Source: Cyanophora paradoxa CCMP329 (lineage: Eukaryota > Plantae > Glaucophyta). Taken from it: a stretch of 64,000 nucleotides of DNA. The stretch is from assembly GCA_004431415.1 (NCBI GenBank), contig QPMI01000437.1, forward strand, positions 310,001 through 374,000, given 5' to 3'. Made by a program: the position numbers and the translations under genes. Positions 35,296 to 60,590 of this stretch are shown here, piece after piece (position 1 is the stretch's first letter; each line of letters begins with the position of its first letter). The notes beneath the pieces were generated by a model. It was not told the DNA's origin, ran no database searches, and worked only from the letters and a program-made list of their open reading frames with translations.

Positions 35296-35298
35296 CTC

Positions 35299-39092: not shown

Positions 39093-39096
39093 CTTT

Positions 39097-41895: not shown

Positions 41896-42019
41896 TTGGG
41901 TATCTCTTAACTATAACCGAGAAAAATGTTTTGTCAGATTTCAATATGCTTGATTTCCTTAAGTAGTTTATGATTCGTCATTTTTTGGTAACAGAGATAA
42001 TTCCTATACTGTTACCATA

Positions 42020-42212: not shown

Positions 42213-42282
42213 TTTCATCAACAAAAAATGATTGTGTAAACTGACTTAAAGATTTATCAGATATATTAATAAGAAAACAACA

Positions 42283-42582
42283 ATGGCTGCTCAAATTGCC
42301 AAAGGAATTCTTGCCGAAAAGATTGAAAAAGATACCCTCTGGAAAGATCATAAAGGATTAGTTGATGCTATTGTAGAGAGTAGTCTCCACTCAACAGGAA
42401 TAAATATTGGTCAGGCTGATAATAAGCGAAACAAGGAATTTCGACAGAAAGTAGAGAGAGATGTATTGGGCATGATAATAGACCCAAACTACCTCTCTTC
42501 AATTAACAAAAAAAATCATTCAAACACTGCCACAAGAAAACGACTCTTTAACAAATTAATGAGTCGTTCTACTTCATCTTAA
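42283..42582 (+). CDS. Viral hypothetical protein (99 aa)
   Basis: ATG in an A-rich context, followed by a hairpin at 42623-42639 between convergent genes. Confidence 0.6.
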   Translation: MAAQIAKGILAEKIEKDTLWKDHKGLVDAIVESSLHSTGINIGQADNKRNKEFRQKVERDVLGMIIDPNYLSSINKKNHSNTATRKRLFNKLMSRSTSS

Positions 42583-42659
42583 ACAATAAAGCCAATTCCT
42601 TTGTATATATTTTTATAGCTGCCTCAGTAGCATACTGAGACCGCTTTTTCTCAATTATC

Positions 42660-42905
42660 TTATAGACCTGGGGGTCCATTGCTACTTTCAGTTGGCAAAT
42701 AATATTTAATCGGTCTTCCTCTGGGTCTCTGCTCTTCTTTTTGGGCTTTTCTGCGATAATAGGATGCCAGGGCTTGCTGCTTTTTATACTCTCTATATGC
42801 TGGGTCCTCTCTATATCGTTTCTGCATTGCTAGAATGTGTCTTATAGAACCCTCAGTAACAGGTTCATCACTGGTAAACTCGATTAAACTAATAGTATCC
42901 TCCAT
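42660..42905 (-). CDS. Small basic putative DNA-binding protein with an AT-hook
   Basis: KRYREDPAYREYKKQQALASYYRRK…RPRGRPIKY. Paralogue of 41665-41895. Confidence 0.65.
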   Translation of the reverse strand: MEDTISLIEFTSDEPVTEGSIRHILAMQKRYREDPAYREYKKQQALASYYRRKAQKEEQRPRGRPIKYYLPTESSNGPPGL

Positions 42906-43161
42906 TTATATTCCCAGAGAAAACGTTTTCTGCTGGCAGAGAACTTCTCCTTGGATACTCCTGTTGCTCATCTGTATACTCTGTGGGGTCTGCTGGCATT
43001 GACTCCACAGAAACTGTAGACCTCCTTCTCTCTCTTGCTTCTGAGGCATTATCCTCATTATCTGACATCTCAAACTCCACTGTTGTCTCACAACATCCAC
43101 TGTGGCAATTGCTCACCACATGCAGACTGAACATCTCGAAGAACTTTCGTATTATGTCCAT
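42889..43161 (-). CDS. Viral hypothetical protein (90 aa, CHSGCC motif, acidic tail)
   Basis: ATG-started ORF in the tandem minus-strand gene block. Confidence 0.55.
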   Translation of the reverse strand: MDIIRKFFEMFSLHVVSNCHSGCCETTVEFEMSDNEDNASEARERRRSTVSVESMPADPTEYTDEQQEYPRRSSLPAENVFSGNINGGYY

Positions 43162-43183
43162 ATCTCTAATAAAACAGAGATAA

Positions 43184-43918
43184 TTAAAGCCAAACTCGTC
43201 TTTTATATACTGTTGGGGCTACTCCCTTTTCTACTTCAGCTTTGGTGGCACCAGGTTCAATAGTTCCCTTTTGGGTCTTTGTTTTCATTTCATCTACTGC
43301 CTGCTCATCGATTTGGGTCTCTTTCTTAGCAATAAACTGTTTATCTGGGACACCAGTAATACCCATTTTATAAACTTCCTTTCGAAGCATCTCCTTTAGC
43401 TTAGCTCTCTCTTTCTTCTCAGTAACATACTGCTCCAAGGCACTGGATTTGGCTTCCAAGTCTTTGAGTTTAGCAGTCATCTCATCCCATTGAGCCTTGG
43501 GAATTCGATGAATATTTTGAGTGGGAGCAGTCTTATATGTGACTTCACCAGCCATAGACTGGATTACCTTGTCTGATTCCTTACTAAGACCTTCACCTTT
43601 GCGAGCCAATGACAGATCTTGCAAGCCTAAACCTTTATCATCAGCAGCACCAATAATTCGCCTGGCACCCTCAGCAACAGCTTTCATTTTCGAAGCTTCA
43701 GGTGAGATGTTGAGTTGGTCACTGGTTGAAGCTTGTGGGGCTTTGTCATCGACTGATTCCTCATAGGCAGCATTAAGAGGGTCCTCTTCTTGCTGTGAGG
43801 GCTTTACCTCATTCATACCATTGAACTTCAGTGGATCTGTGTTAATGGATCCATTGTTTCCACCACCTGAATAGCCAACAGCCCCAGCTGGAATCCCTAT
43901 CTTTCGTTTGGGAGGCAT
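43184..43918 (-). CDS. Viral hypothetical coiled-coil protein (244 aa) with N-terminal PPKRK
   Basis: Long ORF directly downstream of the ATPase, with a charged helical middle region. Confidence 0.7.
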   Translation of the reverse strand: MPPKRKIGIPAGAVGYSGGGNNGSINTDPLKFNGMNEVKPSQQEEDPLNAAYEESVDDKAPQASTSDQLNISPEASKMKAVAEGARRIIGAADDKGLGLQDLSLARKGEGLSKESDKVIQSMAGEVTYKTAPTQNIHRIPKAQWDEMTAKLKDLEAKSSALEQYVTEKKERAKLKEMLRKEVYKMGITGVPDKQFIAKKETQIDEQAVDEMKTKTQKGTIEPGATKAEVEKGVAPTVYKRRVWL

Positions 43919-43946
43919 TGTATCTTTATTAGAATGAGAGATAATT

Positions 43947-44729
43947 TTATAAACCGCGTTTATATCGCATCAATTTATTGCTATGGACTTGGCTTTTCAC
44001 TTCTTTGGGGGCTTCCTCTTTTTCTGGTGGTTTCAGTTCATCCTCTTTCTTTTTTGGCTTCCTGTGGAAGCGAGGAAATGGGAAATCTTTCACAAGCTCA
44101 GCTTTATCTACATAGTATTTAACTGAGTAGTTTGCAGAGGACCAAATGATATATTGATAGGAGTGAACATACTCTTCAAACATCTTGTAGAAATCCTCTT
44201 TATTTCGCATTATATTGTATTCTTCCTCTATGGCTTCAAGTTCTTTGCGATTAGCAGCACTGAGAAAAATAGCATAGTCAGAATTAACTCGAATAGTCGA
44301 CGAGACTTTCCTTAGCTTTTGTGTGATGCAGATAATGGATATTTTCGAATGGCGACCTCTGGAATACAGAGATCCGATTATTTTATCCCTTGTGAGATCG
44401 ACTATCTCATTATCGATTAAATCATCTAAAACAACACACATGTGGTTGACAGGTACACCCTTTTCGATTTTCTCCTGCCTTTCATCCAAAAGCTTTGAAA
44501 TGTAACCGGCATCCCATTTACCAAGTTCTACTGTTGCAACCTCTCTCCAGAAATGATTGAAGCTGGTTCCACTCACAACTAATACAACATCAATCTTTTT
44601 GGCATCATGCAGTTGCTTCAACCAATACTTTACAGCTTCTGATTTACCAGTGGCAGACTTGCCAATTGCTAATACACGAAATGGTGGTTCTATCATTTCA
44701 CCAGCCACAAATTCATCCAAATCATTCAT
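43947..44729 (-). CDS. A32-like (FtsK/HerA) genome-packaging ATPase
   Basis: Walker A GKSATGKS, Walker B VVLDDL, arginine-finger segment SRGRHSKISIICITQ…IRVNSDY. Confidence 0.93.
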   Translation of the reverse strand: MNDLDEFVAGEMIEPPFRVLAIGKSATGKSEAVKYWLKQLHDAKKIDVVLVVSGTSFNHFWREVATVELGKWDAGYISKLLDERQEKIEKGVPVNHMCVVLDDLIDNEIVDLTRDKIIGSLYSRGRHSKISIICITQKLRKVSSTIRVNSDYAIFLSAANRKELEAIEEEYNIMRNKEDFYKMFEEYVHSYQYIIWSSANYSVKYYVDKAELVKDFPFPRFHRKPKKKEDELKPPEKEEAPKEVKSQVHSNKLMRYKRGL

Positions 44730-44789
44730 TGTTGTATATCTTTCTAAATAAAGACAGATAAAAATAATGAAATGTTACTGCTTATGGTT

Positions 44790-45719
44790 TTACAGGTTAG
44801 ATAGGAATCGTTTAATACAACCCTCAATATCTGTTTCGGTATATGGGATTCTTAGGAGTTTGATGTTATTAGCCTCACAGTACCGATTTTTAATTCCATC
44901 ACGAACTTGGGTATCTTCAAATGCCTTCTGACCTCCAAACTGTTCCACAGGTTTGAAATGCTGAACACCATCATATTCGATAGCGATTTTGAGAGATGGA
45001 ATATAAATATCAAATGGGAGAACTCTTTTATGCTTGCAATCAGGAAATCTGTGGGATATTGAGAAGTCCAAACCAATTTCTTTAAGGGCTGCTTGCACTT
45101 TCGTCTCACCAATCGATGATCTACATGACAAACAGCCATAACCATTGAGAAAATCACTTGGCGTTTTTTCGAATTCCATCTCGCACCTTTTGCATATTAA
45201 CTTGACCTTGGTTTTTGAATTGAAATACTCAACCTTTGAGAAATCATAGATATCACCATAAAGTTTAATTGCTCTTTCTGTAAACTTTTCAATCCCCATT
45301 TGCAACTTGTTTTTAATGCGATCCATTTTACATTTTGCATGTCCATCTCCTTGCATGTGTTTGTGTGGTTTTTGAGTGAAATACTCTTGACATTTCTTGC
45401 AGAAAATTGTTATTGGGTCTTCTCCCTTAATGTAAACAGATTCTGAATATTCATAAAGATCTCCATGCTTTTCAACCGCTCTTTTAACGAACTGTTCAGT
45501 TGTTAGTCTATTCGACATTCCCTTTTTAATATTCCCACAAGCTGGGCAACCAGTCCCAGCAATGTGACTATATGCAGCTTGCAAAAAAATATTGTTGCAA
45601 GTCCTGCAAATAATTGCGACTTTCTTTGTGATGCCCCCAAAGTCGACATTTGAGTAATCAAACTTATCACCATGAACTTTGATGGCTTTTGCAAGAAATG
45701 ACTCACGAGAATAAGACAT
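44790..45719 (-). CDS. Free-standing endonuclease: three Zn-ribbon (DUF723-like) repeats + Vsr/PD-(D/E)xK-like domain
   Basis: Repeats of F..KA…HGD.FDYS…KV.IIC..C…GC..C. C-terminal S.GE…LPFDIYI…AIEYDGVQHF…RD..KN.YC..NNI.LLRIPY. Confidence 0.8.
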   Translation of the reverse strand: MSYSRESFLAKAIKVHGDKFDYSNVDFGGITKKVAIICRTCNNIFLQAAYSHIAGTGCPACGNIKKGMSNRLTTEQFVKRAVEKHGDLYEYSESVYIKGEDPITIFCKKCQEYFTQKPHKHMQGDGHAKCKMDRIKNKLQMGIEKFTERAIKLYGDIYDFSKVEYFNSKTKVKLICKRCEMEFEKTPSDFLNGYGCLSCRSSIGETKVQAALKEIGLDFSISHRFPDCKHKRVLPFDIYIPSLKIAIEYDGVQHFKPVEQFGGQKAFEDTQVRDGIKNRYCEANNIKLLRIPYTETDIEGCIKRFLSNL

Positions 45720-45792
45720 TTTACTTTATAAAGGTTTCCAAAAATAAATAATCATTTTTTCTTTAAATGCCTTACTGTTTATCGTAAGGTTA

Positions 45793-47160
45793 TCAAAGAT
45801 TTATACGTCTTAAACCATCGCGATCCAAAATTATGAACGAATGCATGAGAGCGCGAACATTAACATCGATTACCTTATCTGAAGGCATGTAGAGGGTGAG
45901 GAATGAAGAGGAGGAATTTGTTAAATCAACATAACCAGACTGGGCAATATTTCGAATCGCCTTTTCTCCATCAAGGCAGAAAGGCAATCCTGAAAGGACA
46001 TAGCGATCAGCAACCTTATCCATGTTAGAGCATTTGAAGGCATCAGCAATTAGCTCAGCACCTTTGAGTAGGGAAATTGGCTCAGTGGCAAAAAGTCGCT
46101 GTCCATTTATTTCAGTTGTGAATGTTATCTCTTTGGAGTTGGCATAGGTCTTAAGAACACTGTGGGAGCCTGTGGATTTATCAACAGTTGCATTATCACG
46201 AACTGAAACAAGCAGAGCATAAACCAGTCCAGAGATTTGAGAGAGGTTAATTCGATTGGGTTGGGCATTGCCCTTGGCAGGGAAAGCACTAGCATCAACA
46301 AACCCAATGTCTAGAGCAGGAATAGCCATGCCAGTAGTCTTTACTTTTTCAATAACAGTAGCGAAAAGCTCATCAGAAACATTAATAGCATGCATGTAAA
46401 GGCGAGGAGAGGTAATTGTAATACCAGGGGTTGTTGCACCAAGACTGAAAGTGGTGATGTTTTGACCAACATGGGCAAGGGTTCCATCTGTGAAGTTTCC
46501 AAGACCATCATCGGCAGTTGCATCAACTGTTCCAACAGCAGTTGTGAGTTCACGACCACCATAGGAAGTTTCAACATAACCCTTCTCAGCATCCTTAAAC
46601 CAAACAGTAACAACCATTTCACCAGATAAAGCACCAAGGGGAAGGTAGTGATTTAGCCAAGGCACAGGAATTTCAACGAAAAATGAGCCACCAAGGCGGT
46701 TGGTTCCATGAGCAGGAATGCCATGAACCATGCCCATTGATCGCTTCTTTTTAGCTAGTTGATCCTCCGAATAATAGACCAGGGGGAAATGAGCAAGGAA
46801 ATCAGATGGAATATGGTAGGTGTAAGATCCATAGGTAATTTCAAGTCGCTGAACTAAAGCACCAACTGGGCGAGTGTATCCATTGCGAACTAGGTCAGTA
46901 TCACCAGCAAAAGTGATGGCTGGAAGGTCGAAAGCAAGTTCGAGTTTTCCACAGAAATTGTAGCGAGGTAGCTTGAAGGAAATGCGATTTCCAACATTAT
47001 TCTCAAAAGTATTGCTGGGATTCACAACAACTAGAACTGGCTTAGACTTGGATTCGAGACCAAGCATAAGGGAGTTATCCAGGAAAAAGGCTTTCGCCTC
47101 CTCTGGGGTTGTTAGGGCTTCTTTCAGCGAAAGTCTTTGAAGAGTGGAAGTGATATCCAT
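45793..47160 (-). CDS. Major capsid protein, double jelly-roll (about 455 aa; ATG at 47160)
   Basis: Size and position next to the ATPase and pentons. ISFKLPR…LELAFDLPAI, LVQRLEITYG and VEIPVPW…YLPLGAL…VVTVWF resemble NCLDV/PLV MCP N-terminal motifs. Confidence 0.8.
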   Translation of the reverse strand: MDITSTLQRLSLKEALTTPEEAKAFFLDNSLMLGLESKSKPVLVVVNPSNTFENNVGNRISFKLPRYNFCGKLELAFDLPAITFAGDTDLVRNGYTRPVGALVQRLEITYGSYTYHIPSDFLAHFPLVYYSEDQLAKKKRSMGMVHGIPAHGTNRLGGSFFVEIPVPWLNHYLPLGALSGEMVVTVWFKDAEKGYVETSYGGRELTTAVGTVDATADDGLGNFTDGTLAHVGQNITTFSLGATTPGITITSPRLYMHAINVSDELFATVIEKVKTTGMAIPALDIGFVDASAFPAKGNAQPNRINLSQISGLVYALLVSVRDNATVDKSTGSHSVLKTYANSKEITFTTEINGQRLFATEPISLLKGAELIADAFKCSNMDKVADRYVLSGLPFCLDGEKAIRNIAQSGYVDLTNSSSSFLTLYMPSDKVIDVNVRALMHSFIILDRDGLRRINL

Positions 47161-47213
47161 TATATTCTCTTTTATTATACTGCAACATAAAAAATCTACC
47201 AATGATCCTTAAT

Positions 47214-48224
47214 TTATGCGAAGCTTGTAATAACTGGATAGGAAGGGTGAAGCTGCGACATTCTCATCTTAAAGTATTCATAAACTGGGTCTCCTGCTGG
47301 CTCATCACCATAGCGAATTTCAAAGGTCAGATGAACAGGTTGACCCTCAAAATCAATTGGTTCATTTACAGCATTAACAATATCAACCGAGAAAGTGGAT
47401 AATCCAACCTTTTTGTTATAGTATTTATAAAGTGGATGAGCTTCTGTTGAATTGTAAACAACATGCTCACCATAGTCTTTATCAGGGACCACTATTTTGT
47501 GAAAGTAACCAGTCAGAAGACCATCCCCACATTGCACCAGATCACCCAGCTCCTTTACTCTCACAAACAAAACACTGTCCCTGGTCTTCTCAGGCTCAAA
47601 AGAAGATATAATGCCATTCACGCGACCACCAGTAAAGATTCCATCAGTGAGAGCATCATAGACCTGTGATTGGATTGGGGAGTTACCATATCTTCCAGGA
47701 TCAAGACCCAGCAGTCTAGCTGAACTCAACAGCTTTTGGATTGTTTGTTGGCTTGGGTTCACAGCTACTGAGAAAGCCAAGTAAAATGGTACTGCTGAGT
47801 GGAATATAATTCGTTTCAGTGATTCATCCCATTTGCAGCGAATGGATGGTTGGGGATTTCTGCCTTCGAATTTAGAGTTAATTACATTCACAAGTTGCTG
47901 GTGGCTTTGGATGGGGGTGTTTCGACTTATAATGAATTGTTTCCATTGTTCATAGTCAGCAGCTGGGCGAACTGTTGGAATTCCTGAGCTTCCAGCTCCA
48001 GGAGTTTGTTCAGAATAATAAATGCTAAATGCATTGTCAACTGTCACATCTCCAACTTTGGTTTCACCACTCACCATAGGGATGCTGTTATAAAATTCGG
48101 CTGAGACCAGTCTCACAGCCCTCACATTCTCATAACTACTGGGGAGTCTAGCCACAAAGCTTGATGTGGGACCATCACCAGAGATTGTATTAAATGAGCT
48201 AACCTCGATGTAATCCACAGGCAT
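47214..48224 (-). CDS. Minor capsid (penton) protein 1
   Basis: IEVSS…F…LP…NV.AVRLVSAEFYNS N-terminus; LFVRVKEL…LSTFSVDIVN…IDFEG…LTFEI C-terminus. Immediately upstream of the MCP. Confidence 0.75.
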   Translation of the reverse strand: MPVDYIEVSSFNTISGDGPTSSFVARLPSSYENVRAVRLVSAEFYNSIPMVSGETKVGDVTVDNAFSIYYSEQTPGAGSSGIPTVRPAADYEQWKQFIISRNTPIQSHQQLVNVINSKFEGRNPQPSIRCKWDESLKRIIFHSAVPFYLAFSVAVNPSQQTIQKLLSSARLLGLDPGRYGNSPIQSQVYDALTDGIFTGGRVNGIISSFEPEKTRDSVLFVRVKELGDLVQCGDGLLTGYFHKIVVPDKDYGEHVVYNSTEAHPLYKYYNKKVGLSTFSVDIVNAVNEPIDFEGQPVHLTFEIRYGDEPAGDPVYEYFKMRMSQLHPSYPVITSFA

Positions 48225-48253
48225 TCTTCTTTTATCTATATTTATATATTAAA

Positions 48254-49186
48254 ATGAACCGGCTCGTTAATATTGATAGCAGGGATAGAAGCCAAGGACA
48301 AAATGAAAACTCTTACAGGGTCACCCTCACAACTCCAGTAGAGAGACCAAGGGAATGTAGGGTTCTCTATGCAGAGATTCCAAACAGTATCTATAACAGT
48401 GTGGGAACTGATCATCTAACAGTTCAGTTTAATTACCAAGATGGTTCATATAACCAAGTGATCACACAACAAGTGTATCCCCTTCCCAGTGGCTACATCA
48501 ATCAGGGTCATTTTGGGGTCACACACCCTTATAATTATGGGCTGAACTATTCAAGCTTCCAAACTATTGCAGGCAAAACAGTAGCTTTTGAGTTCAAGAT
48601 ATTCTACAACCCAACAACCTATAAAGTGGAGTTTTACAGTAACCATGAGTTTCGTTTTATTGCAAGCAACCAGAGAATAGGAAAGCTTTTGGGTGTAAGT
48701 TCTACTGAATACACCACTGGGTATTATAGCACTCCTCCTGTTGGTGGATCTCCCTATCGACCTGAGAACCTTTTAAAGTATGATGGCAAACCTATTACAC
48801 CTGATCACCCAGCATGGGGAATCACCTTCTCAGGACCCAGACTCTCCTCTAAGCCCTTGCAATATTATTTTGACAGCAGGAAGATGTCTGATATGAATGC
48901 TGAGCAGTATCTGTACATGCATATTAAAGAGCTGTCCCCCTTTGCCAGCAGACACAATATAATTCCAAAATCGCAACCACAAAATCAGGGAGCTATCCTT
49001 AGATTGCAATTGAGTAAGGATATAGGGGGCTATGTTTACCATAGTGGTGAGCATGCAGAATTTATTCAAATCAATGACAGAAACCTGGTGATAAGGGAAC
49101 TCACAGTTGAATTTAAAGATTACTTTGGTGAACTGATTGATATGAATGGAATCGATAATTCTTTTCAGTTGGAGTTTATCGAATAA
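48254..49186 (+). CDS. Minor capsid (penton) protein 2
   Basis: VNIDSRDR…YRVTL…LYAEIPNSIYN; YLYMHIKEL…LTVEFKDYFGELIDMNGIDNSFQLEF. Confidence 0.8.
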   Translation: MNRLVNIDSRDRSQGQNENSYRVTLTTPVERPRECRVLYAEIPNSIYNSVGTDHLTVQFNYQDGSYNQVITQQVYPLPSGYINQGHFGVTHPYNYGLNYSSFQTIAGKTVAFEFKIFYNPTTYKVEFYSNHEFRFIASNQRIGKLLGVSSTEYTTGYYSTPPVGGSPYRPENLLKYDGKPITPDHPAWGITFSGPRLSSKPLQYYFDSRKMSDMNAEQYLYMHIKELSPFASRHNIIPKSQPQNQGAILRLQLSKDIGGYVYHSGEHAEFIQINDRNLVIRELTVEFKDYFGELIDMNGIDNSFQLEFIE

Positions 49187-50731
49187 AGGCACCTGTAAAG
49201 TCAACTCTCATTGTGGGAGCATTCACATACACAAGGGGATAAATGCGAATATATCTTATTCTCAGAGAATAACCTATGTAAAAAGCATCCTTGATGCTGA
49301 GAGGGAACCCACTCAATAGAGCCACATCACCAGAGTTGTGAGCATTGTTAATGTTCTCACAGACATATATTTTGTTTTGCCCATCTGATCGAATAAAAGA
49401 CCAGTTGATCCCATCAGTGGATGTTGCCACATTGAAAGTCTTAATAAAAGCATTGGTGTCCCCTGATCCATAGGCAATCACAGAGGAGAGTTCAAAAGTA
49501 TATGGAAAAGCAACTTGAAGGTATTCAGTGGGGGTTTCCCATATCTGCTCAGGAGCATAGGCTCCAGCTTCCCAGCCAAATGCTGAAGGTCTAGCCATGA
49601 AAGGCTCTTTACCAGTCACAGAGGATGAGGCAGTGAAGGCATCATCTGCAAGCTGATACCAATTAGCATCTAAAGGAGGTGACTCTGTGAGAGTGGATGA
49701 GATGTAAGCCTTTGTAGGGTTCTTTAGTTCATAGTTTGCTACTAGTAGGCTGCAAAGCTTATTAATCATATCATTGTTTGCTGCAATGTATGTTTCAGTG
49801 AATGCTAGCATATCTGGGATTTTAGAAGTGTCATCCAGAGAGCTTACTATATGATTTGGAAGAGGGACTGATAGCCTATAGTATCTCCCATAATCCTGAT
49901 CATAGTTGTATGGTAACAACTCCTCCATCTTATCAAGGGCAGAAAGCTCACTTGCAGCCATGAGCATGTTAATCAATGGGCTTCCATCTGTTGAGGCAAT
50001 CCATGAGAGAATTCCCCAGCTGTTTACAGTCTCATAAGCATAACCCACATAATCAGACTCTAAATGTGGGTCCACCTCTCCACAAGAGATACTTATTACT
50101 ATAATGTCATCATCATCACTGTAAATCTTCTTTGCATGGCTGTAACCACACACACTGGGATTATTGTTTCCCGAAATGGCACCATCAATGAGACAGACAT
50201 ATACCCCCCGATTGAAATCAACAATGCTTACAGGAGAGAAATATGTAGGAGCAGCAGAGGTAGCCCTAGCAGCAATCTTACAAGGCAGAAAGTTGTAATT
50301 GTTATCATTTGTGATAAATATTGGTTTCATATTCTGAGTATCAAAGGATGTGATCACAATGTCCTTTAGGGAATCCTGTATTAGTGATTCCCCAGTAACT
50401 GAATTGATTGCAGTCTCCAAGGGTCCCACATCATACTTTGTATTAAATAGGGCATTTTCGATTATATTTCGAGGATTTGCGAAAATCAAGGGCAGTTGGG
50501 CTAGGTAAATGTTGTGTAAATCGTTTGCTGTGAGTTTAGGTTCACCTGGTTTATCAGGATGCCTTATATTCAAACCTATTGCAATGATCCCACCAGTGGA
50601 AGTTCCACTCACAAGATCCACAAGATCGATTATTCTCCTGCCAGTTCGATTTTCGATTTCTTTTAGCAGCCTGGTTATGATAATGCCCCTTGCACCCCGC
50701 CAGAAAGACTTAAAACGACCTTGAGAGGCAT
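49176..50731 (-). CDS. Patatin-like phospholipase fused to an F5/8 type C (discoidin) domain; -1 frameshift at ~50696
   Basis: MPLKVVLSLSGGGARG (restored by one extra G), GTSTG, ARATSAAPTYF, IDGA. C-terminal FTASS…W…EYLQV…F.VATSTDGINW…RYIRIYP…MRVDFTG. Confidence 0.88.
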
Positions 50732-50774
50732 CTTTTACTTATCAGGAATTTTATAAATCCATATAGTAAAAGCC

Positions 50775-53700
50775 ATGAGCTTCAATTACCCACCAAATCT
50801 AGAAACCATTCAAGATGATAATGCAAGCAGCACCAAGCATGTGAACTTTGATAATATTAAAGTAAAGGGTTCAGTTTCAATTGACCACAGCTCTGATAAT
50901 TCATCAAAGACTCAATCAAGGGAGCATGCTTTATCTGTGAATCAAACCGATCCAGATAAAGAGGAGGTCAGTGTTGCTTTTAGTTTGGGTAATGTGAAAG
51001 CAAACCAAGTGGCAGAGATCAAAGCAACAAGAAGGAGACCTAGGAAACTAAAAACCAGTGGCACCCATCCAGATATACCTTCCAGGTTCGATAGTGGTCG
51101 ATTGATTTTCAATGTTCAAGATGAGCAGGGCAAACAGAACACAGCTTTGCGAATTTACAATGAGGGCAGCACTGCAAAAGCTGAGGTCCCCAAGTATTGC
51201 AAGTGGGTCCCATTGCCAACACAAATCAGGTCTCCTACACAAATGATGTATACCCCAAGGATATTACATATGACTTTGCGAGGAATGAGCCTTTTGGGTT
51301 TTTTACTCCAAAAGATGTCCATCAAAAAAAGCCATCAATTACAATCAACAGTAGCCCCAGTCAACCAGTAGCAATCCATTTACACCCTGATTTAGTCGAA
51401 ATGGATAGGCACCTTTTGCCTTTGTATAGCAATGTGAAAGACCTTGGAATTCGAACCAGGCAATGGCGAAATATCCATGGCAGCAATGTGTATGCAAATG
51501 GAGAGAAGCTTGTAAGTGAGAAAACTCTAAGGGAAATCATTGAGCATTATGGTCCCAATGGACCTACTGTCCCATTCCCTATTCCATTTCCCAATGGACC
51601 ACCCGATTTAACACCAAAGAAGCAACCTGGAAGAGAATACACAGCAACTGAAGATGTAGCCTTTGGGCAGCATATTGTAAGTTGGGAGCAAGTTCGCAAT
51701 AAACCTATAATTGAACCAAGAAAGCAAATAGATGAGCAGTATTTACCTCCTGAAATCGATATATTAGAGCTTGAAGAATATCAATTCGTTCCAGATGAGG
51801 AAGAGTATTTACCAGATGGTTTTGACCCACAAGAGTATGAGTATGATCAATTTGACCCCAATGAGGAGGAGATACTACCAGATGGCTTAGATCCACAAGA
51901 GTTTGAGTATGAGCAGAACTATGAACCTGATGAGGAGTATTTGCCAGATGGGCATGATCCACCAGCTGTTGATTATGAGCAACCTTATGAACCCCATGAG
52001 GAATTACTACCAGATGGATTTCGACCTGAGATCTGGGAGTTCTTTCCTGATTATGAACAAATTAATAATAAACCTGCAAAGTATCCCCCAGAGGATCACA
52101 ATCATGATTGGGATGAGATCTTAGGCAAACCTCAAAAGTATCCACCAGAGGATCACAGGCATGATTGGGGTGATATTGATGGAATACCAGAAGAATTTCC
52201 ACCAAGCAAACATGAACATATTTGGGATGAGATTAATGACCAACCAGAGTTTGCAAAAGTGGAGCCTTTGGCAACCCTAGGGGTTTCTCTTTACCAGACT
52301 TGCAATGTCCCTGAAAGGATCTTTTTGAATGAACACTATGTACATGTGAATGGGACACTTGCGAATTCAGGTATGAGAGGACCACTTCATATTAGGACAT
52401 TACCAGGCTCTTTTGAAACCCCACCAGAACCAGGAGCAACCATACCAAATATCTTTGTGTCAAGCTACATGGAGGTTGACATACCCACAGATACTTTTAG
52501 AGTTCCAACAGACCCAGCAACCTACCAAAATTACAATGCAGCTATACAGGTTCATGTTGCAGATGTGAGCAGTCTGGATGGATCAAGACCAATGATAGTT
52601 TTCAGTCGAGATAAATACTCCTACATTCCCATAGTGGGAACTGCAAATGATAATTATGGAAGGGCAGAACTTGCATGGATAAAAACGAATTATGGTGGGG
52701 TTCTGGAATCCAATCAGAGGATGGCTGCAAAAAACATACACAACGAGAATATATCAAGAGTGGTCACAGAGGATTACCTTACTGCTGTAATACTTGTAAA
52801 TTTCGTAACTCTTGCTATGCTTGGAGATTATGTAACAAAACCTGAACTTGCAGATGAATTATCAAAATATCTTCCGCTTGTTGGTGGGACAATCACAGGA
52901 AATCTAAGAGTCAATAGTAATATTTACAGCAGCAATATTGAGACCAGCAATCTTAAAGTAATTGAAACTCTCACAATTGGTCCAAGTAATTTGCACACAC
53001 TGAATCAGATTATCAGGGAATATTATCCCATCACATCATCTTATGATCCCGCCTTAAATATTTCAAATTGCATTTTTGCATGGAAAGCCTCAGGAACAGA
53101 TGGACAATCAGCCACAGGAACAACCGTTTATAGTCGAATATCATCAATCATACCATCTCTTCCTGTCGTTGGAAATCCCTATTACTCCACCGGGATAAAC
53201 AACCAAATGAGTTTGACAATTGGAGCAGATGCCGGTTTTGCTTTGTATTCGTATGTATCAAGAACTATTGATTACTCAAATGGATTAACCTTTTTCTTTG
53301 TGGGAAGATATGGAAGAGCTACAAGTGGGAATGATGTCCATTTTAGATGTGACAAAACAACAACTCCAAATAGACGTATTTCCTATGGAGCAAATACTTG
53401 GGCATCACTTGGTATCAGTTCATTTATAATCAATGCCGTAGGTCAAACAAAACCTTCGTTCAATGTTTCAACATTTGCAAATCAATGGTATTATTCCGAC
53501 CAAACAATAACATCAGACAGCTACACAGTAGGATTTAATGGAATTGATATAGGAACGATCACAGGAACAAATTATTTACCTGATTCGGTAGTTAATTTAT
53601 TTGGAATAGGTTACCTCAATGGTGGTAGCATTTGTGAAATCATTGTTTTCAACAGAGCATTAACGGCAGAAGAAAAACAGAACGTCAGGTATTACATCCA

Positions 53701-56500
53701 GCAAATGTATGGTTTCCCTATAACTCAACCTCTTTCAACATCTATTGCGTTAAAGATCACATCACCTGAAACAATAATAGATAATCTCACTGTTATTAGT
53801 AAAGCAAACCTTCCAAACTATCCTACAAATGATGTGGTTCAAAATTGGATACGAAACCATACACACACCAAAGGTCAAATAACAGATTTCGCACACAAGC
53901 ATTTATGGGAGGATATCACGAATCCACCATTAACCTTTCCGCCTGATATTCACACTCATGATTATACCCAGATTACCAACTGCAATCACAGACACCCATG
54001 GAGCGAAATTGATCAACAACCAGTATTTGCACAATTGAATGCAATCGGAAATATTTTTAATGGAGTTACACTTTACCAATCCAGTAATACAGCTGAAAGG
54101 TTATATTTGAATGATCATTATGTCAGCCTCAATGGGACTTTTACAGGTCAAACAGGCACCCCCATGGTGGGAACTCTTGCAGTAAGATTACCCAGGGATC
54201 CTATTGTAAATGGAGCCTATGATGGAGATTTTAATGTTAGTGTGACTGATACTTTCCCCAGTATCTATGTAACGAATTATCACCCAGGAGAAACAGGACA
54301 AGAAGAGAATTTTTCAGCAGCAATTCAAGTAAATGTAACAGATCAAAGCGCATATGATGGAGCAAGACCTAAAATAGTTTTCACAAGGGAGAAAGTTGTA
54401 AACTACCTTCCTGTTGCGGGACAACCCACAGATGATCACGGAAAATGTGAGATGGCGTGGATAAAAACGTTATCAGGTGGCGCCTTAGAAGTCAATCAGA
54501 GAATGGCGGCGAAAAACTTACACAATACCACCCTTTCCGGTGTTGTTACAGATGATTATTTAGAAAACAAAGATTATGTTACAAATACAGAATTACAATT
54601 AGCTGTTACAGATTTTGTTACAGATACCGATTTAACGGCGGCACTTGCTAATTATCTACCTCTAACAGGTGGAACTGTAACAGGTACTGTGAATGCTACC
54701 ACTTTACAAATTGGCGGAACCACAATACCAAAAGGTTACGATTTCGACCAATTAGATGTGGTCTCATCAGATAGAAGCCCGAATAATTGGACTGTTACAG
54801 GATGGATACCAAGAACCGGACAAACAGGATGTTATACAACACCAGCAAATGATGAAGATTGCAGCGGTTGTTGGATGAGGTGGGTTGTTCCGACAGGTAT
54901 GAAATCGTTTTATATTCAGCACATGCCTTGGGGTAATTGTAGATATTTCGATATCTACGGGCAAACTGTTAATGGATATCAACATTTCTTAAAGCGTGTA
55001 AATGCTTATCAAGTAATTCAGGAAGTTAATCAAGGTGGAACACACAATTGTATTTTGTTTGTCTCTATTAATTGCGAATTCTACAAATATATTTATGTTC
55101 AAGGTCGAAAAGGTCGCATTCATCTTACGGGGGTTTTCGGTTGGAGTAGACAAAGAGCAATGGATAATGAGGTTGGTATGATCTCTTGGGATAATATTTT
55201 TAGTAAACCATCATTTTATTCAGCCGCAGACCTTCCACAAACAGCGACATGGCCAACAAATACATGGTTAAAATCAACCGACACTGTTCCGCGAATTTGG
55301 TTTGGAAATGGTGATTGCACATATATTCGAGGTTATGGAAATAGTGGTGGTGTTTCAATTGAATTCAGAGACTCAGCAGATGGAGCAATATTAAAGTCTT
55401 ATAACAATGGTAACTTTTGGGTGAAAAACACTATTACAGCGACCACTATTAATGCTACAACAGATCTTCAAATAAATGGTAATGCTGTTCCAAAGTTTCA
55501 CACAGCAGATAAAACAAAAGGAGGTATTGAATTTAATAGATGTTCTTATGGCGATTGGACATGGGCGTGGAGTTCAGCATGGGATCCACATTATAATTAT
55601 GGTTCATATGTTCATAATAATCAAACGGATGATCAAACTTCTACCGCTTGGATTGACTTCGATATTCCAGAAGGATATCACACAGGAACAGCGTTTTTAA
55701 CTTATCTACCTTGGACTAACTCACGAATTTTTGAAATTTGGGGACTGAATCGACAAGGGAATGAAGTTTTTATTACATCAGTGAATAGTTATCAACCATA
55801 CGCCACATCGCCTGATGGTAACCACAGTGGTGTAAATAATGTTCCGATACATCTTGGTAATCGATTTCTCACAATTCGAATTAGACCAAAGATTGGAAGA
55901 GTTCACATTATGGGTATAAGTTACATGAAAATATGGGTAGGAAATAGTTATGGTGGTCACACCGGCTATATTCATTGGAATAATGTTTATAGTAAACCAA
56001 ATATCTTAACAGGAACTGTGGGGACTTGGTTTAATTCCAGTGATGGATATAATCGAATTCATTTCGGTAACAATGATTCTACATATTTGAAAGGAAGAGG
56101 AACTTATCCAATAAGATTTCGAAATGAATTAGATTCTAATATTTGTTGGATCGATCATGACGGGCGGATGTGGATAAACAATTATTTAACACAAGGAAGT
56201 GACAGAAGATACAAAACCGATATTAAAAAGATAACCGGCGCTCTTTCAGCAATTGAAAAATTGGAAGGAGTGAGTTTTAAACGAATTGGGAGTGAAAAAG
56301 ACGGAACAAAATTAGGTTTAATTGCGCAAGATGTAGAAAAGGTAATACCAGAAATTGTAAGTGTCACAAAAGAAGATGGTTACCTTTCTCTCGAATACAC
56401 GGGTTTAATTCCAGTTCTCATTGAAGCTGTGAAGGAGTTGTCCCAAAAATGCAAAGATCTACAGGATCAAATAGACCAAATTAAAAATGTCAAAGTATAA
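50775..56500 (+). CDS. Giant fibre/spike protein (about 1,900 aa) with phage tail-fibre repeats and a C-terminal peptidase S74 chaperone; -1 frameshift at ~51190
   Basis: HxHxWxxIxxKP repeats, YLPLxGGTxTG x2, a LamG-like segment (EIIVFNRALT), and C-terminal SDRRYKTDI…GLIAQDVEKVIPEIV…Y..LIPVLIEAVKEL. ORF 50775-51371 joins 51197-56500 with one extra C. Confidence 0.85.
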
Positions 56501-56503
56501 TAA

Positions 56504-56809
56504 ATGGCGACCTATCCTCTTGGTGGAACCACCTATTCTACTGAGCCTGTTGCGCTTTCTTTTGATACAATCACCCTTGTAAACGCATTACAAACAGTTG
56601 AAAAAACGATTCAGCAAACTAACAAGCTCTCACCAGTTGTCAATGAGTATAAAAACCTCTTGGTTAATGTCCTTGCTCAAGCTGCATATGGTGACCCTGT
56701 TGCTAAATACACTGAGTGTGATAACAACATTAAAGCAATGACATCCAACCTGCAAGTTCTTTCAACTGTTTACCAATCCCTTGGATCGAATTTAATCACT
56801 TTGGCTTGA
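56504..56809 (+). CDS. Viral hypothetical protein (101 aa)
   Basis: ATG 3 nt after the fibre stop codon. Predicted helical. Confidence 0.65.
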   Translation: MATYPLGGTTYSTEPVALSFDTITLVNALQTVEKTIQQTNKLSPVVNEYKNLLVNVLAQAAYGDPVAKYTECDNNIKAMTSNLQVLSTVYQSLGSNLITLA

Positions 56810-56848
56810 TTGCAGTTTATTTTTCTTTCCTTCTTAGTAAAAGAAGCA

Positions 56849-57724
56849 ATGGGTGAATATAATCGAGTTCAACTGCCTATATATTCCCTTGGATCCCCTG
56901 CAATGCATTTTCGCCAGCATGAAGTAAATGATGAGGTTCGTGGTTTAGAATCCACAGAGAGACCCAATTCCAATGGCAACTCCTTTGATAAAAATTCGAT
57001 TATTCGAGTTAAAGAGCTGAGAGCTGATAAGAATTCTGGTGTGGTTAAAACAACTCGACTTCTTGTCACAAATGCTAACTTTTTCCAGCCTACCAATGGA
57101 GGTCCTGATGCTTACAGTGTTGATCTGAAAGCCCTTGATTTCGATAAGAATTCTGCTGCTGTAACTGTGAGATCAGGAGGAGCATTTATTGGTGGTGGCT
57201 GCAGAGTTTCAGGTCAGCTATCTTCATCTGTTTCCTACAATGATGTCCCAGATACTCTCGAACAAAATGTGGAGAACCCACAACGAATTCGTTTCTACAC
57301 ACCTGTTGCACAGCAACCTTTTTTGCATTTCTATGTTGCATCCTCTGTAACTCTTGAGAATTCGGAATTAGTTTCCATTACAGGAACTGATCGAGTAAGA
57401 AGAAATATTCCTCTTCCCACTGCAATGCTTTCCATGTGTAGAGCCAATAATAATCAACCAGGACACAACTACTTATTCTTTGTTCAAGCTTCGAACCATT
57501 TTGGCAGAGGATATTGTGTTTATAACAATTTGACATTTACCTATGATCTGTTTGTCACTGAGGTTGGAGTATACAATACTATGATTATGGGACTGAGAAC
57601 AGATATAGCAGCTGTATCAGCACTTCGTGGGGTAAATGTTGCTGATATATTCACAACAGGATTTTACCAAGAATTAGATGTAATTGATGACCCAACCCAT
57701 AAAAGATATATCCCTTTAATGTAA
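56849..57724 (+). CDS. Putative virion structural protein, paralogue A
   Basis: Shares ELR.DKN.G.VKTT.LLVTNANF and SGGA.IG.G.RV.G with the next gene. ATG at 56849. Confidence 0.7.
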   Translation: MGEYNRVQLPIYSLGSPAMHFRQHEVNDEVRGLESTERPNSNGNSFDKNSIIRVKELRADKNSGVVKTTRLLVTNANFFQPTNGGPDAYSVDLKALDFDKNSAAVTVRSGGAFIGGGCRVSGQLSSSVSYNDVPDTLEQNVENPQRIRFYTPVAQQPFLHFYVASSVTLENSELVSITGTDRVRRNIPLPTAMLSMCRANNNQPGHNYLFFVQASNHFGRGYCVYNNLTFTYDLFVTEVGVYNTMIMGLRTDIAAVSALRGVNVADIFTTGFYQELDVIDDPTHKRYIPLM

Positions 57725-57725
57725 A

Positions 57726-58558
57726 ATGGCTGAGCAACCCCACTTGAACGAATTATTACACCTCAACTATCATTAGCTGCCCCAGCAAACCATGTTTTAC
57801 AGCATGCTACTTTTGATGATGTAGAGGGTCTCCAATCAACAGAGGTCCAACCTACAATGAACACCTTTGGTTCCACCCATAAACTGAGATTACAGGAACT
57901 CAGATGTGATAAAAATAATGGAATAGTTAAGACAACTAAGCTACTTGTTACCAATGCAAACTTTTCTGCTCATTATGGAGACCCAGATAGCTATGGAGAT
58001 CCTCTTTCTACTTATTCTTTTGAATCTAGGTCGGGAGCTATTAACTGCAAATCGGGGGGAGCTTATATTGGTGATGGTCTTAGGGTTGGTGGGGCTGTTG
58101 GAGCGCCTCTATTTGTGAATGATCAACCCAATCCCATTGATCCCAACACAAGAATTCGAACCTATGTCCCCAGCATGAATGCCCCCTATATAATCAAGAT
58201 ATTCCCCATTGTTGTAAATGAACAAACAGCAGTAGTAGATTCTCTTGTTGAGATTGGTGACCACTACAAGGTAGTTGTGGATATTCCACCAGATGTTTAT
58301 GCTGTATGTCAAGTGGAGGGTGGAACTCCTAATTTTGCAGTTGTGATCACCCCATATGATAATTTCGGAATTGCTTATCATGGAGTCAATTTCGGTTTGG
58401 AAGACTATCAGTTTCTTGTGAGAGCCACCAAGTTTGGTATCTACAAGTGTGTGATGTTTGCAGAGAGAACCGATTTTATTGCAAAGCAGAATACCTATGC
58501 TGAATACTATGGGACAAATCGATATTTTCCCATTTTTGGGCAGGATACTGCTCCATAA
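57726..58558 (+). CDS. Putative virion structural protein, paralogue B; -1 frameshift at CCCC 57738-57741
   Basis: Adding one C gives MAEQPPLERIITPQLSLAAPANHVLQH…DDVEGLQSTE, which aligns with the paralogue A N-terminus (SLGSPAMHFRQH…DEVRGLESTE). Confidence 0.7.
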
Positions 58559-58580
58559 GAATATTGGTTATATATAGAGT

Positions 58581-58853
58581 ATGGATAGTAAAACAAAAAA
58601 GTTTATTGATGCTGCTATGACAGTTCATGGTAAAGATAAATTCGATTACAGTGAGACACATTACATCAAAGCTCAAGAGAAAGTATCTGTGAGATGTTTG
58701 CAGTGTAATAAAGTGATCCTTACCTATCCCTTTAATCATGTGAAGGGATCAGGTTGTAGGGAATGCAACAAAAAGCATTCTCAGGCTTACAGGAAAAGGG
58801 CTACTTCATCAATCAAAGTAGAGTACAGGGATATTTGCATTAGGTTCGATTAG
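58581..58853 (+). CDS. Single Zn-ribbon (DUF723-like) domain protein, no nuclease domain
   Basis: FIDAAMTVHGKDKFDYSETHY…KVSVRCLQC…HVKGSGCREC, the same repeat unit as in 44790-45719. Confidence 0.7.
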   Translation: MDSKTKKFIDAAMTVHGKDKFDYSETHYIKAQEKVSVRCLQCNKVILTYPFNHVKGSGCRECNKKHSQAYRKRATSSIKVEYRDICIRFD

Positions 58854-58882
58854 GATTAATTAATTTTTCTAAGGTATTCTTA

Positions 58883-59281
58883 ATGGAGACTAAATACAGA
58901 GGCTTTCATGTAATGCTTGATTACAAGGCTAAAACAGCTATAGCAACAGGTTATGAGCATGTTAGCTTCCTAGGTAATTGGATTATGGGAACCCTTGAAC
59001 AAGCAGTATTGAGACAAGGTATTAGGATTGTTCATAAGCATTGTGAGATATTTGATGGCAAACTATCACCTCCTGGTTTTGCATTGGTTCTGCTATTAGA
59101 TGAAAGCCATTGCACAGCTCATTGTTATTCCAATGAAGGCATGTTAGCAATTGATATATTCAGTTGTGGTAAAGAAGCTCAGCATAAAACACAAGCAGTT
59201 GCAGATGAGATCGATAAAACAATGAATTTCCTCACATTTGAGAAGACTGAGAGACATAAACATGATAGATTCCCGTTTTGA
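58883..59281 (+). CDS. speD: S-adenosylmethionine decarboxylase proenzyme homologue (short, prokaryotic-type, pyruvoyl-dependent)
   Basis: G.HVMLDY N-terminus, PPGFALVLLLDESHCTAHCY..EG..AIDIFSCG with an intact E-S-H autocleavage site. Confidence 0.88.
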   Translation: METKYRGFHVMLDYKAKTAIATGYEHVSFLGNWIMGTLEQAVLRQGIRIVHKHCEIFDGKLSPPGFALVLLLDESHCTAHCYSNEGMLAIDIFSCGKEAQHKTQAVADEIDKTMNFLTFEKTERHKHDRFPF

Positions 59282-59537
59282 TAGGTTTATATAATGATAA
59301 TCAGGGTAATTTACCTTTTTTATTACAAAAGCTTTCTACAATGATTATTTTCCGGATTCCGGTCATTCTTTACGATAGAAATTCTACTGTATGATGTAGC
59401 CGAAATATGAATGCACCCTACATTAAGCAATGTCAAATAATTAGAATAATGTTCGATTTCCTTACACTAAAACCTCAGCATCTGCCCTAGATTCCCCCTA
59501 TAATTAAAGTGGAATCAAGGTTGACTCATATTAATCG

Positions 59538-60584
59538 ATAGTATATGGATTTTGTTACGAATTCAATGCAAGGGTTGACTAAGTGGGTTGAGTTGACTCA
59601 AATTTCACAGGAAATAACAATGAATCAGAGTATAAATGCATTTTTTGAGTCAACTACACCAACTAACACTGAGAAAGTAGAAGATATCATATAGTATTAC
59701 CATATATGGTTTGTCAGGCACTATAATATAGTTGTCAGGCAGTAATATAGTATGTCAGGCATTGTCAGGCACCTTTTTAGAAAACTTTTATAAAATTGAA
59801 ATTTCATTGTTAATCCAAACAATGACTTAGCCAAAATAAAATACTTTATGAAAATCGATAGATTTAATGCCTGACAAATAAATGCTGCCTGAAAGATTTA
59901 ACACCAACTAACACTGAGATTTTCACAATATATGAGGTCCTTACTGAATATGGTATGTGTCACAGGTGTCACAGGTCTATCCCGTGGATTTTAAAAATCA
60001 ATTTCTCACTAGGACTTTCCTTGGGATTGACCTGTGACACCTGTGACACCTGTGACACCCAATTTTCTAAGGGTCCCCCCTTAGACTCAACAAAACAATG
60101 ATAAAATCATATAAGTTTCATGTATAATTACGATTGAATTCAATAAGAGATCGATTTATTAATATAAACAAATGAATCATTTATGGATCTTAATCGAGTT
60201 TAGCGATATATTTCCGATTAAATGAATTAAATTTAATTAAATTTAATCGAGAAAGTACATGAATATAATATCGATTAAATCAATTACCTTTTAGACCAAT
60301 CACACATAGTAAAATGCGGAGTTTTAACCAGAGGCAAGATCTAATTGAGATTCAGTTATATTATTCGGAAATATATACAGATTATCGATTGACTCAGTAA
60401 GACTAATCGGAAAATAAGAGAAATTTACGATAAAATATCGAAAAGAATACAAAATAATCGAAATAATTGAATATTCGATAAGATATACACAGATTATCGA
60501 TTGATTGAAATAGAATATACGAGATATATCAACAAAATCAATTAAGATAAGCCGAGGGTTAAAACTCCGCATTTTACTATGTGT
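59538..60584 (-). repeat. Right terminal inverted repeat (1,047 bp; imperfect extension to ~59477)
   Basis: Reverse complement of 32026-33072. Includes the same hairpin (stems 60302-60329 and 60557-60584). Confidence 0.95.
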
Positions 60585-60590
60585 TTGCAA
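60585..60590. repeat. Right target-site duplication TTGCAA
   Basis: Matches 32020-32025. Confidence 0.9.

What the first reader, a model, noticed from the sequence alone, without database searches (positions are those of the whole stretch)
58883..59281. A small integrating virus carrying an S-adenosylmethionine decarboxylase homologue
Seen: a SpeD-like ORF with an intact ESH site as the last gene before the right TIR, with no spermidine synthase partner in the element. Known: AdoMetDC converts SAM to dcSAM, which cannot donate methyl groups and feeds polyamine synthesis; some SpeD homologues decarboxylate arginine or ornithine instead; such genes are known from large phages and giant viruses. 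Inference: in a 28-kb integrating virus it could drain SAM to counter host methylation silencing (analogous to phage SAM lyases) or boost polyamines for DNA packaging.
Basis: partly seen in the sequence, partly recalled or inferred. Interest (0 to 1): 0.82.

Follow-up and report, generated by a model that had tools for sequence, protein, structure and literature searches.

The report
Polinton-like virus with arginine decarboxylase
A 28.6-kb virus inserted in a eukaryote's genome carries a small decarboxylase gene that likely turns arginine into the polyamine precursor agmatine rather than draining the methyl donor SAM, and related genes sit in several other small DNA viruses, likely swapped with giant viruses.

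Summary
ORF 58883-59281 is an intact class 1b SpeD-fold gene, the last before the right TIR of a 28,559-bp integrated Polinton-like virus, with no spermidine synthase in the element. The interpretation mostly fails. The protein misses the AdoMetDC equivalog cut-off and lacks the proline reported to mark true AdoMetDCs. It groups with the marine group II archaeal lineage whose members were shown to be pyruvoyl-dependent arginine decarboxylases (SpeDA; PMC10407285). That lineage sits beside or fused to SpeY and agmatinase genes, not spermidine synthase. It most likely makes agmatine from arginine (about 0.78); draining SAM against methylation is unlikely (about 0.03). What remains new is the carrier. 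Its nearest relatives with known context are giant-virus genes, and a separate branch of the family occurs sporadically in other Polinton-like viruses (4 of 80 loci of one capsid clade, the 4 being query seeds). One PLV origin is rejected (AU p 2e-5). My searches found no paper reporting a polyamine enzyme in these viruses. An earlier scan note (e1-347807) read a speDA-speY pair in another genome the same way; none concerned a virus. Activity and expression are untested.

The parts
58883..59281 (+). SpeD-fold pyruvoyl decarboxylase proenzyme, 132 aa, SpeDA (arginine decarboxylase) lineage
   Evidence: Pfam PF02675, fold, tree, motif census
59102..59110 (+). E74-S75-H76; predicted self-cleavage between E74 and S75, giving a 74-aa (8.4 kDa) and a 58-aa (6.7 kDa) pyruvoyl chain
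   Evidence: alignment to T. maritima, sizes; cleavage itself inferred
59120..59131 (+). H80-C-Y-S: catalytic His kept, Ser83 in place of the Pro of canonical H-T-W-P
32026..60584 (.). Integrated Polinton-like virus, 28,559 bp, 38% GC
   Evidence: sibling contigs end at the same terminal base with another flank (tables 7 and 8)
32026..33072 (.). Left TIR, 1047 nt, with an internal hairpin at 32026-32308
59538..60584 (.). Right TIR
32020..32025 (.). Left copy of the 6-bp target-site duplication
60585..60590 (.). Right copy of the 6-bp target-site duplication
33911..35295 (-). rve-type integrase, in two frames in this assembly
   Evidence: PF00665 E 1.6e-4, below cut-off; ORFs
35299..38542 (-). 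Protein-primed DNA polymerase B region, in three frames in this assembly
   Evidence: PF03175 E 7.5e-14 in the middle piece only; that the outer pieces belong to it is inferred from position
39097..41490 (-). Primase-helicase-like protein, 797 aa
   Evidence: no Pfam hit; 30% identical over 406 aa, E 9e-40, to the Prim-Pol/PriCT-2 protein of L007
43947..44729 (-). A32-like packaging ATPase
   Evidence: PF04665 E 6.8e-11
45793..47160 (-). Likely double-jelly-roll major capsid protein, 455 aa
   Evidence: ESM Atlas features 0.97-0.98 to viral clusters bearing Capsid_N on 12-83% of members (a lead); 59% identical to EukProt gene model P0200; single-sequence fold failed
49176..50738 (-). Patatin-like phospholipase with F5/8 type C domain
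   Evidence: PF01734 E 1e-15, PF00754
51401..56500 (+). 1699-aa fibre-like protein with C-terminal Peptidase_S74 chaperone
   Evidence: PF13884 E 1.3e-15

Best explanation
The gene sits intact in an integrated Polinton-like virus and encodes a SpeD-fold proenzyme that is predicted to cleave itself at E74-S75, form a pyruvoyl cofactor and likely decarboxylate L-arginine to agmatine, which host enzymes would turn into putrescine and longer polyamines during viral replication. Shown: ORF, fold, catalytic residues, loss of the canonical proline, placement with the marine group II SpeDA lineage, nearest contextualised relatives in giant viruses, recurrence in other PLVs. Inferred: self-cleavage; arginine as substrate (about 0.78); a host route from agmatine to putrescine; the benefit to the virus (translation via spermidine and eIF5A, or DNA condensation); acquisition by exchange with a co-infecting giant virus.
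For: (1) PMC10407285 (parts 1-4 of 7 and supplement read): purified SpeD homologues of marine group II/III archaea, Poseidoniales, Gimesia, Nannochloropsis and Tribonema form one clade and act on arginine, not ornithine or lysine; the two archaeal ones did not restore spermidine to an E. coli speD mutant. SpeDA proteins lack a proline kept in true AdoMetDCs. (2) The 80 best of 392 confirmed genome loci are all archaeal MAGs with Poseidoniales/MGII-type or unranked euryarchaeal titles, 40-57% identical. Of these, 78 of 80 have a deoxyhypusine-synthase-like (SpeY) gene in the locus, 14 of them fused; 34 of 80 have an agmatinase-like gene; 0 of 80 have a speE match. (3) 5 of 5 such genomes hold one SpeD-family gene and 0 of 5 a spermidine synthase; the control rang in 10 of 14 genomes. 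(4) Proline is absent at that site in the query and in all 137 of the 150 best index-free hits that have a readable motif; it is present in 9 of 10 canonical references. (5) NCBIfam AdoMetDC equivalog: 44.7 bits against a cut-off of 75.65. (6) All 40 hits over 200 aa were scanned: DHS 5, arginase family 1, PQ-loop 5, NNMT-like 4, SET 2, spermidine synthase 0. That PQ-loop proteins carry cationic amino acids is recalled, not from a call. (7) Careful tree: the query lies in a 99/93 group with giant-virus genes L098 and L099, inside an 89/94 group with MGII; canonical SpeDs are split off at 100/100. (8) dN/dS is 0.08-0.12 in the 3 of 6 PLV pairs that are not saturated, and 0.08 for L098/L099.
Against: No assay. 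None of the biochemically validated SpeDA sequences is itself in my tree; the link runs through MGII orthology and gene order. The node joining query and MGII is 89/94, below the star threshold, on 126 columns, and ingroup rows were chosen by likeness to the query. The proline is not absolute: phiYS40, a validated AdoMetDC, has Ile there, and I inferred which proline the paper means because its Fig. 8 was not visible. SpeD enzymes switch substrate repeatedly, and the query is only 40-57% identical to MGII proteins. NNMT-like and SET methyltransferase fusions (6 of 40) tie some relatives to SAM chemistry. A host agmatinase route was not checked because no genome is held, and the paper notes SpeDA is useful only where such a route exists.
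Confidence: 0.66

Rival explanations
1. It is a true AdoMetDC that supplies dcSAM to the host's spermidine synthase and so raises spermidine.
For: Same fold and catalytic triad. Two algal giant viruses encode validated class 1b AdoMetDCs (PMC9992855). A host enzyme could stand in for the missing partner. phiYS40 shows the proline can be lost.
Against: Equivalog cut-off missed. 100/100 split from canonical SpeDs on a long branch. Phage SpeDs match at only E 1e-4 to 1e-2. No speE near or fused to any relative examined. The paper names no viral AdoMetDC in the MGII clade.
Confidence: 0.09
2. One reading: it drains SAM to dcSAM and so blunts host DNA-methylation silencing of the provirus.
For: A motive may exist: the element interior has CpG o/e 0.39 with TpG 1.19 and CpA 1.33, against CpG 1.21 in the left flank and 0.71-1.06 in four free PLV-like contigs, the pattern expected after methylation and deamination.
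Against: It needs SAM as substrate, which the evidence disfavours. The CpG loss shows that the gene did not spare the family from that signature. Relatives sit in archaea and giant viruses, the archaeal ones in polyamine gene clusters. SAM lyases match the model only at background level, E 6e-3 or worse.
Confidence: 0.03
3. It decarboxylates ornithine or lysine (SpeDC-like, or mixed), making putrescine or cadaverine directly with no need for a host agmatinase.
For: A lone gene in a small virus would profit most from a one-step route (argued in PMC10407285). One phage enzyme used both Arg and Orn.
Against: None of the four SpeDC marker residues (Gln, Thr, Phe, Tyr) is present when the query is read against the SpeDC domains printed in the supplement (positions inferred). 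Validated members of the MGII clade showed no Orn or Lys activity.
Confidence: 0.07
4. It is an arginine decarboxylase, but its use is to act against a co-infecting giant virus or to reshape the host, by depleting arginine or piling up agmatine, not to feed polyamine synthesis.
For: No downstream enzyme was found in the window, in 15 viral loci or in 80 PLV loci. Several characterised PLVs replicate only with giant viruses (passages of bioRxiv 10.64898/2026.10.13.758929).
Against: Giant viruses carry the same gene, which points to a pro-viral use. SpeDA enzymes are slow (kcat under 0.6 per s).
Confidence: 0.1
5. It is a passenger with no function in this virus.
For: It lies at the genome end, and integrase and polymerase frames are broken in this assembly.
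Against: The frame is intact with all 10 columns invariant across 61 relatives. GC (37%) and GC3 (28%) match the element, so it is long resident. Many sibling contigs lie on the ORF, and two loose ends of divergent contigs keep the frame with mostly synonymous changes, read by eye.
Confidence: 0.05

Closest known systems
SpeDA pyruvoyl-dependent arginine decarboxylases of the marine group II archaea / Gimesia / Nannochloropsis / Tribonema clade (PMC10407285)
   Same: Class 1b fold, S/H/C triad, no canonical proline, 40-57% identity to MGII proteins, no spermidine synthase partner.
   Different: Stands alone in a 28.6-kb eukaryotic virus, with no speY or speB neighbour; activity untested.
[quoted passage not shown]
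   Same: A small prokaryote-type SpeD used as an auxiliary metabolic gene.
   Different: The eukaryotic-virus SpeDs tested there were true AdoMetDCs of giant viruses, and the ADC/ODC types were in phages. The word polinton does not occur in its main text or supplement.
Endogenous Polinton-like viruses of protist genomes (PMC10120064, passages)
   Same: 15-30 kb, TIRs, GC contrast, MCP, pPolB or primase-helicase, rve integrase.
   Different: No decarboxylase is mentioned in its main text; the capsid clade was not assigned here.
Auxiliary metabolic genes of marine PLVs (bioRxiv 10.64898/2026.05.28.728513, passages)
   Same: PLVs do carry metabolic accessory genes (glycosyltransferases, RNR, lipases).
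Chlorovirus PBCV-1 arginine decarboxylase (PMC9992855)
   Same: A eukaryotic virus making agmatine from arginine.
   Different: PLP-dependent, ODC-derived fold with a virus-encoded downstream pathway; unrelated protein.

Membership tests
Class 1b SpeD-fold pyruvoyl decarboxylases | PF02675 domain and fold | tested here: met
Class 1b SpeD-fold pyruvoyl decarboxylases | Ser, His, Cys equivalent to T. maritima S63, H68, C83 | tested here: met
   S75, H80, C95
Class 1b SpeD-fold pyruvoyl decarboxylases | Autocatalytic cleavage | not testable with these tools
   needs expression
Bona fide AdoMetDC (SpeD) | NCBIfam TIGR03330 equivalog cut-off | tested here: not met
   44.7 against 75.65 bits
Bona fide AdoMetDC (SpeD) | Conserved proline after the catalytic His | tested here: not met
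   Ser83; position inferred from the paper's text; phiYS40 is an exception
Bona fide AdoMetDC (SpeD) | Spermidine synthase partner | tested here: inconclusive
   none in the element or beside relatives; the host genome could supply one and is not held
SpeDA arginine decarboxylase, MGII/stramenopile clade | Groups with MGII SpeD homologues, apart from AdoMetDCs | tested here: met
   (89/94 and 100/100); validated accessions themselves not in the tree
SpeDA arginine decarboxylase, MGII/stramenopile clade | Relatives in speY/speB context, without speE | tested here: met
   78 of 80, 34 of 80 and 0 of 80 loci
SpeDA arginine decarboxylase, MGII/stramenopile clade | Arginine-specific activity | not testable with these tools
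   needs assay
SpeDC ornithine decarboxylase | Four marker residues Gln, Thr, Phe, Tyr | tested here: not met
   0 of 4, against the supplement alignment; positions inferred
Polinton-like virus / polisuvirus | TIRs and target-site duplication | tested here: met
Polinton-like virus / polisuvirus | Packaging ATPase, replicase and integrase | tested here: met
   (A32 and pPolB over cut-off; rve below cut-off)
Polinton-like virus / polisuvirus | Double-jelly-roll major capsid protein | tested here: inconclusive
   language-model match 0.98; no Pfam hit; model unusable at pLDDT 35
Polinton-like virus / polisuvirus | Minor capsid (penton) protein | not tested
   candidates by position 47214-48224 and 48254-49186, no Pfam hit
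Classical Polinton/Maverick | Cysteine (adenain-like) maturation protease (feature recalled) | tested here: not met
   none among 24 ORFs by Pfam at E 0.01; a divergent one could be missed
Polinton-like virus / polisuvirus | Virion formation | not testable with these tools
   needs induction and microscopy

The most novel reading that the evidence does not exclude
Small Polinton-like viruses have more than once taken a pyruvoyl arginine decarboxylase from the giant viruses they co-infect with, and use it to steer the arginine-agmatine-polyamine pool of the shared cell. It would be the first polyamine enzyme of any polisuvirus, the first SpeDA of eukaryotic viruses, and a metabolic front in PLV versus giant-virus conflict.
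Probability: 0.35. Interest if true: 0.7.

Novelty: new variant of a known kind. Interest (0 to 1): 0.47.

Why it matters
The enzyme family is known, but the carrier is not. Polyamine genes have been taken as a mark of large viruses with heavy translational demands (PMC9992855), so finding one under purifying selection in 18-29 kb viruses asks why such small genomes pay for it. The interleaving of PLV and giant-virus copies is sequence evidence for shared cells, which bears on the open question of how most PLVs replicate. The result also warns that genes labelled S-adenosylmethionine decarboxylase in viral data sets may be arginine decarboxylases. One 132-aa protein and published E. coli assays settle the substrate.

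Tried and rejected
No whole genome is held, so host polyamine genes, copy number and empty sites were not checked, and the host species is not determined. Expression: no RNA holder listed on record. Two runs only guessed to be RNA have contigs over the ORF that differ from this copy; contigs cannot show transcription, so I draw nothing from them. Summed contig depth (about 15,000-22,000 over the ORF against 110 on the flank) is not a copy number; I take only 'many related copies'. The window's capsid found no relative in viral contigs and 1 protein among 7,997 scored candidates. HHalign on alignments of only 2-4 rows did not link it to the L007-clade capsid, nor that to the 451-aa ORF of L001, so L001 and L010 are PLV-like by gene content only. 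The capsid fold without an alignment failed. Cluster look-ups gave no accessions, so validated SpeDA proteins could not be matched; pelagiphage HTVC201P was not among the listed rows of three phage searches. The ribose-binding role of T. maritima Glu72 (Asn84 here) is recalled, a paper search for it found nothing, and 69 of 78 MGII proteins keep Glu/Asp there, so I dropped that argument. Literature searches: 'polinton-like'+'adenosylmethionine decarboxylase' 0 papers; 'polinton-like viruses'+'polyamine' 0; 'virophage'+'adenosylmethionine decarboxylase' 2, neither about it by listing (one checked); one search gave 39 papers, 20 listed, one checked by passages. The library lacks most subscription papers, and bioRxiv supplements were closed. 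Three of 6 PLV dN/dS pairs were saturated. No complex prediction was run.

Full report
Observation. The ORF at 58883-59281 (+) is real and intact: 132 aa, Pfam AdoMet_dc E 2.9e-11, a model at pLDDT 95 whose best solved matches are class 1b AdoMetDC proenzymes, and S75, H80 and C95 in the places of T. maritima S63, H68 and C83. It is the last gene before the right TIR. Its GC (37%) and GC3 (28%) match the element, not the host, so it is not a recent capture from the host.

The element. It runs from 32026 to 60584, with 1047-nt TIRs and a perfect 6-bp duplication, at 38% GC in a 60-62% GC eukaryotic contig with intron-split genes (anoctamin, cysteine-rich repeats). It encodes an rve integrase (weak hit), pPolB, a primase-helicase-like protein, an A32 ATPase, a likely double-jelly-roll capsid, a patatin and a fibre with an S74 chaperone. 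No protease was found. Short-read contigs confirm both junctions and show many diverged siblings in the same species, one with the same terminus in another flank. Integrase and polymerase frames are broken in this assembly; sibling contigs differ by single-base indels in those genes, so assembly error or decay of this copy cannot be told apart. It works like an endogenous Polinton-like virus as described in PMC10120064 (passages); its class is unassigned.

Which enzyme. PMC10407285 (parts 1-4 of 7 and the supplement; figures not visible) shows that SpeD homologues without spermidine synthase are often arginine (SpeDA) or ornithine (SpeDC) decarboxylases. One well-supported SpeDA clade holds marine group II archaea, Gimesia, Solirubrobacter and two stramenopile algae. 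Four lines put the query there.

First, nearest prokaryotic relatives: the best 80 of 392 confirmed genome loci are all archaeal MAGs of MGII type or unranked euryarchaea (the scan patterns came from the query's own alignment, which favours this clade). 78 of 80 have a SpeY-like gene, 14 as fusions; 34 of 80 have an agmatinase-like gene; none has speE. This is the speB-speDA-speY order of the validated enzymes. Five such genomes (completeness not given) have one SpeD each and no spermidine synthase. SpeY proteins are now known to couple agmatine (PMC13625781, passages).

Second, motif: the query has H-C-Y-S for canonical H-T-W-P. An index-free search of 1.84 billion representatives gave 305 hits; of the best 150, 137 had a readable motif and none had the proline, against 9 of 10 canonical references. 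The exception, phiYS40, is a validated AdoMetDC, so the marker is strong but not absolute. The SpeDC markers are absent. The AdoMetDC equivalog cut-off is missed by 31 bits.

Third, fusions: all 40 of the 150 hits over 200 aa were scanned. Partners were DHS (5), PQ-loop (5), NNMT-like methyltransferase (4), SET (2) and arginase family (1); spermidine synthase did not occur. The methyltransferase fusions are the one hint toward SAM.

Fourth, trees: a quick tree of 113 rows and a careful mixture-model tree of 52 hand-picked rows, without the three longest canonical branches, both set canonical SpeDs apart (100/100 in the careful tree) and place the query with MGII (89/94). No validated SpeDA sequence could be included.

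Where it came from. The query's starred group (99/93) holds five other proteins. The two with known context, L098 and L099 (52% and 49% identity), are giant-virus contigs: NCLDV capsid, ERV1, RNase III and D5 helicase in L098, D5 helicase and the same neighbours in L099. The sister rows P0001, P0002 and P0027 have no context. The direction of transfer is not shown.

Other PLVs. Of 11 IMG/VR loci found with the query's alignment, L006, L007 and L008, plus L191, are one PLV clade with A32 ATPase and a jelly-roll-like capsid. L001 and L010 are PLV-like by gene content only. L002 and L003 are giant-virus MAGs, L005, L009 and L011 probably giant viruses, and L004 a phage. The PLV genes form a separate branch mixed with giant-virus genes; holding all seven PLV rows together is rejected (AU p 2e-5; the group was named after I had seen the quick tree). 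They are under purifying selection where dS is measurable. They are sporadic: among the best 80 of 111 loci with that capsid, 4 carry the gene (2 of 25 with 15 kb or more fetched), and these 4 were the seeds, so the share is an upper-leaning figure; none has speE, SpeY or agmatinase. That branch has about 80 close clusters in metagenomes, of unknown carriers, and its substrate is less certain than the query's.

Mechanism. Most likely the proenzyme cleaves at E74-S75, the pyruvoyl chain decarboxylates arginine, and host enzymes take agmatine on to putrescine and spermidine, as proposed for pelagiphage SpeDA (PMC9992855, parts 1-4 of 7 read). Cleavage, substrate, host route and benefit are all inferred. 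Substrate odds: arginine about 0.78 with a few points for an inactive gene, SAM about 0.12, ornithine or lysine about 0.07. The anti-methylation reading needs SAM and gets about 0.03. The element's CpG depletion (0.39) suggests the family has been methylated, which gives a motive but also shows no protection.

Novelty. The carrier is new as far as my searches reach; supplements of the bioRxiv PLV surveys, which I could not see, may list the domain.

Noticed in passing
window 31990-32025 and 60585-60739 (- strand): The element appears to have inserted into a coding exon of a host cysteine-rich repeat gene: the frame is open and Cys-rich up to the duplication on one side and continues on the other.
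   Followed up: partly
window 33100-59500: CpG depletion (o/e 0.39) with TpG and CpA excess in the element interior, not in the TIR (0.91) or host flank (1.21); suggests targeted methylation of this virus family.
   Followed up: partly
window 38900-42200: Far fewer sibling contigs lie on the primase-helicase region than on the rest of the left half, and it is bounded by a partial TIR-like repeat at 42002-42141; it may be a swapped-in replication module beside pPolB.
   Followed up: no
window 56849-58558: Two tandem paralogous ORFs of unknown function (33% identical) just upstream of the decarboxylase; sibling contigs differ by indels near their boundary.
   Followed up: no
window 44790-45719 and 58581-58853: DUF4379 zinc-finger repeat proteins; the long one is 40% identical to a protein of giant-virus MAG L002, a second sign of gene traffic with giant viruses.
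   Followed up: no
window 32026-32308 and 60302-60584: Each TIR begins with an imperfect 283-nt hairpin (47-nt arms, 81% complementary).
   Followed up: no
proteins P0040, P0065, P0083, P0142; P0034, P0038, P0058, P0071, P0172; P0055, P0088: Fusions of the SpeDA-like domain with an NNMT-like methyltransferase (two also with DHS), with PQ-loop membrane domains, or with SET domains; possible pathways to methylated polyamines or transport-coupled decarboxylation.
   Followed up: no
proteins P0026, P0174: Close relatives with KSH in place of ESH, one as a tandem duplicate.
   Followed up: no
L010:12574-13176; L191:645-1010; L001:9502-10092: PLV-like contigs that carry the decarboxylase also carry a deoxynucleoside kinase, a SET-domain protein or a LicD protein.
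   Followed up: no
L179:1-637: In Croceibacter phage P2559S the validated AdoMetDC overlaps a methyltransferase-domain gene.
   Followed up: no
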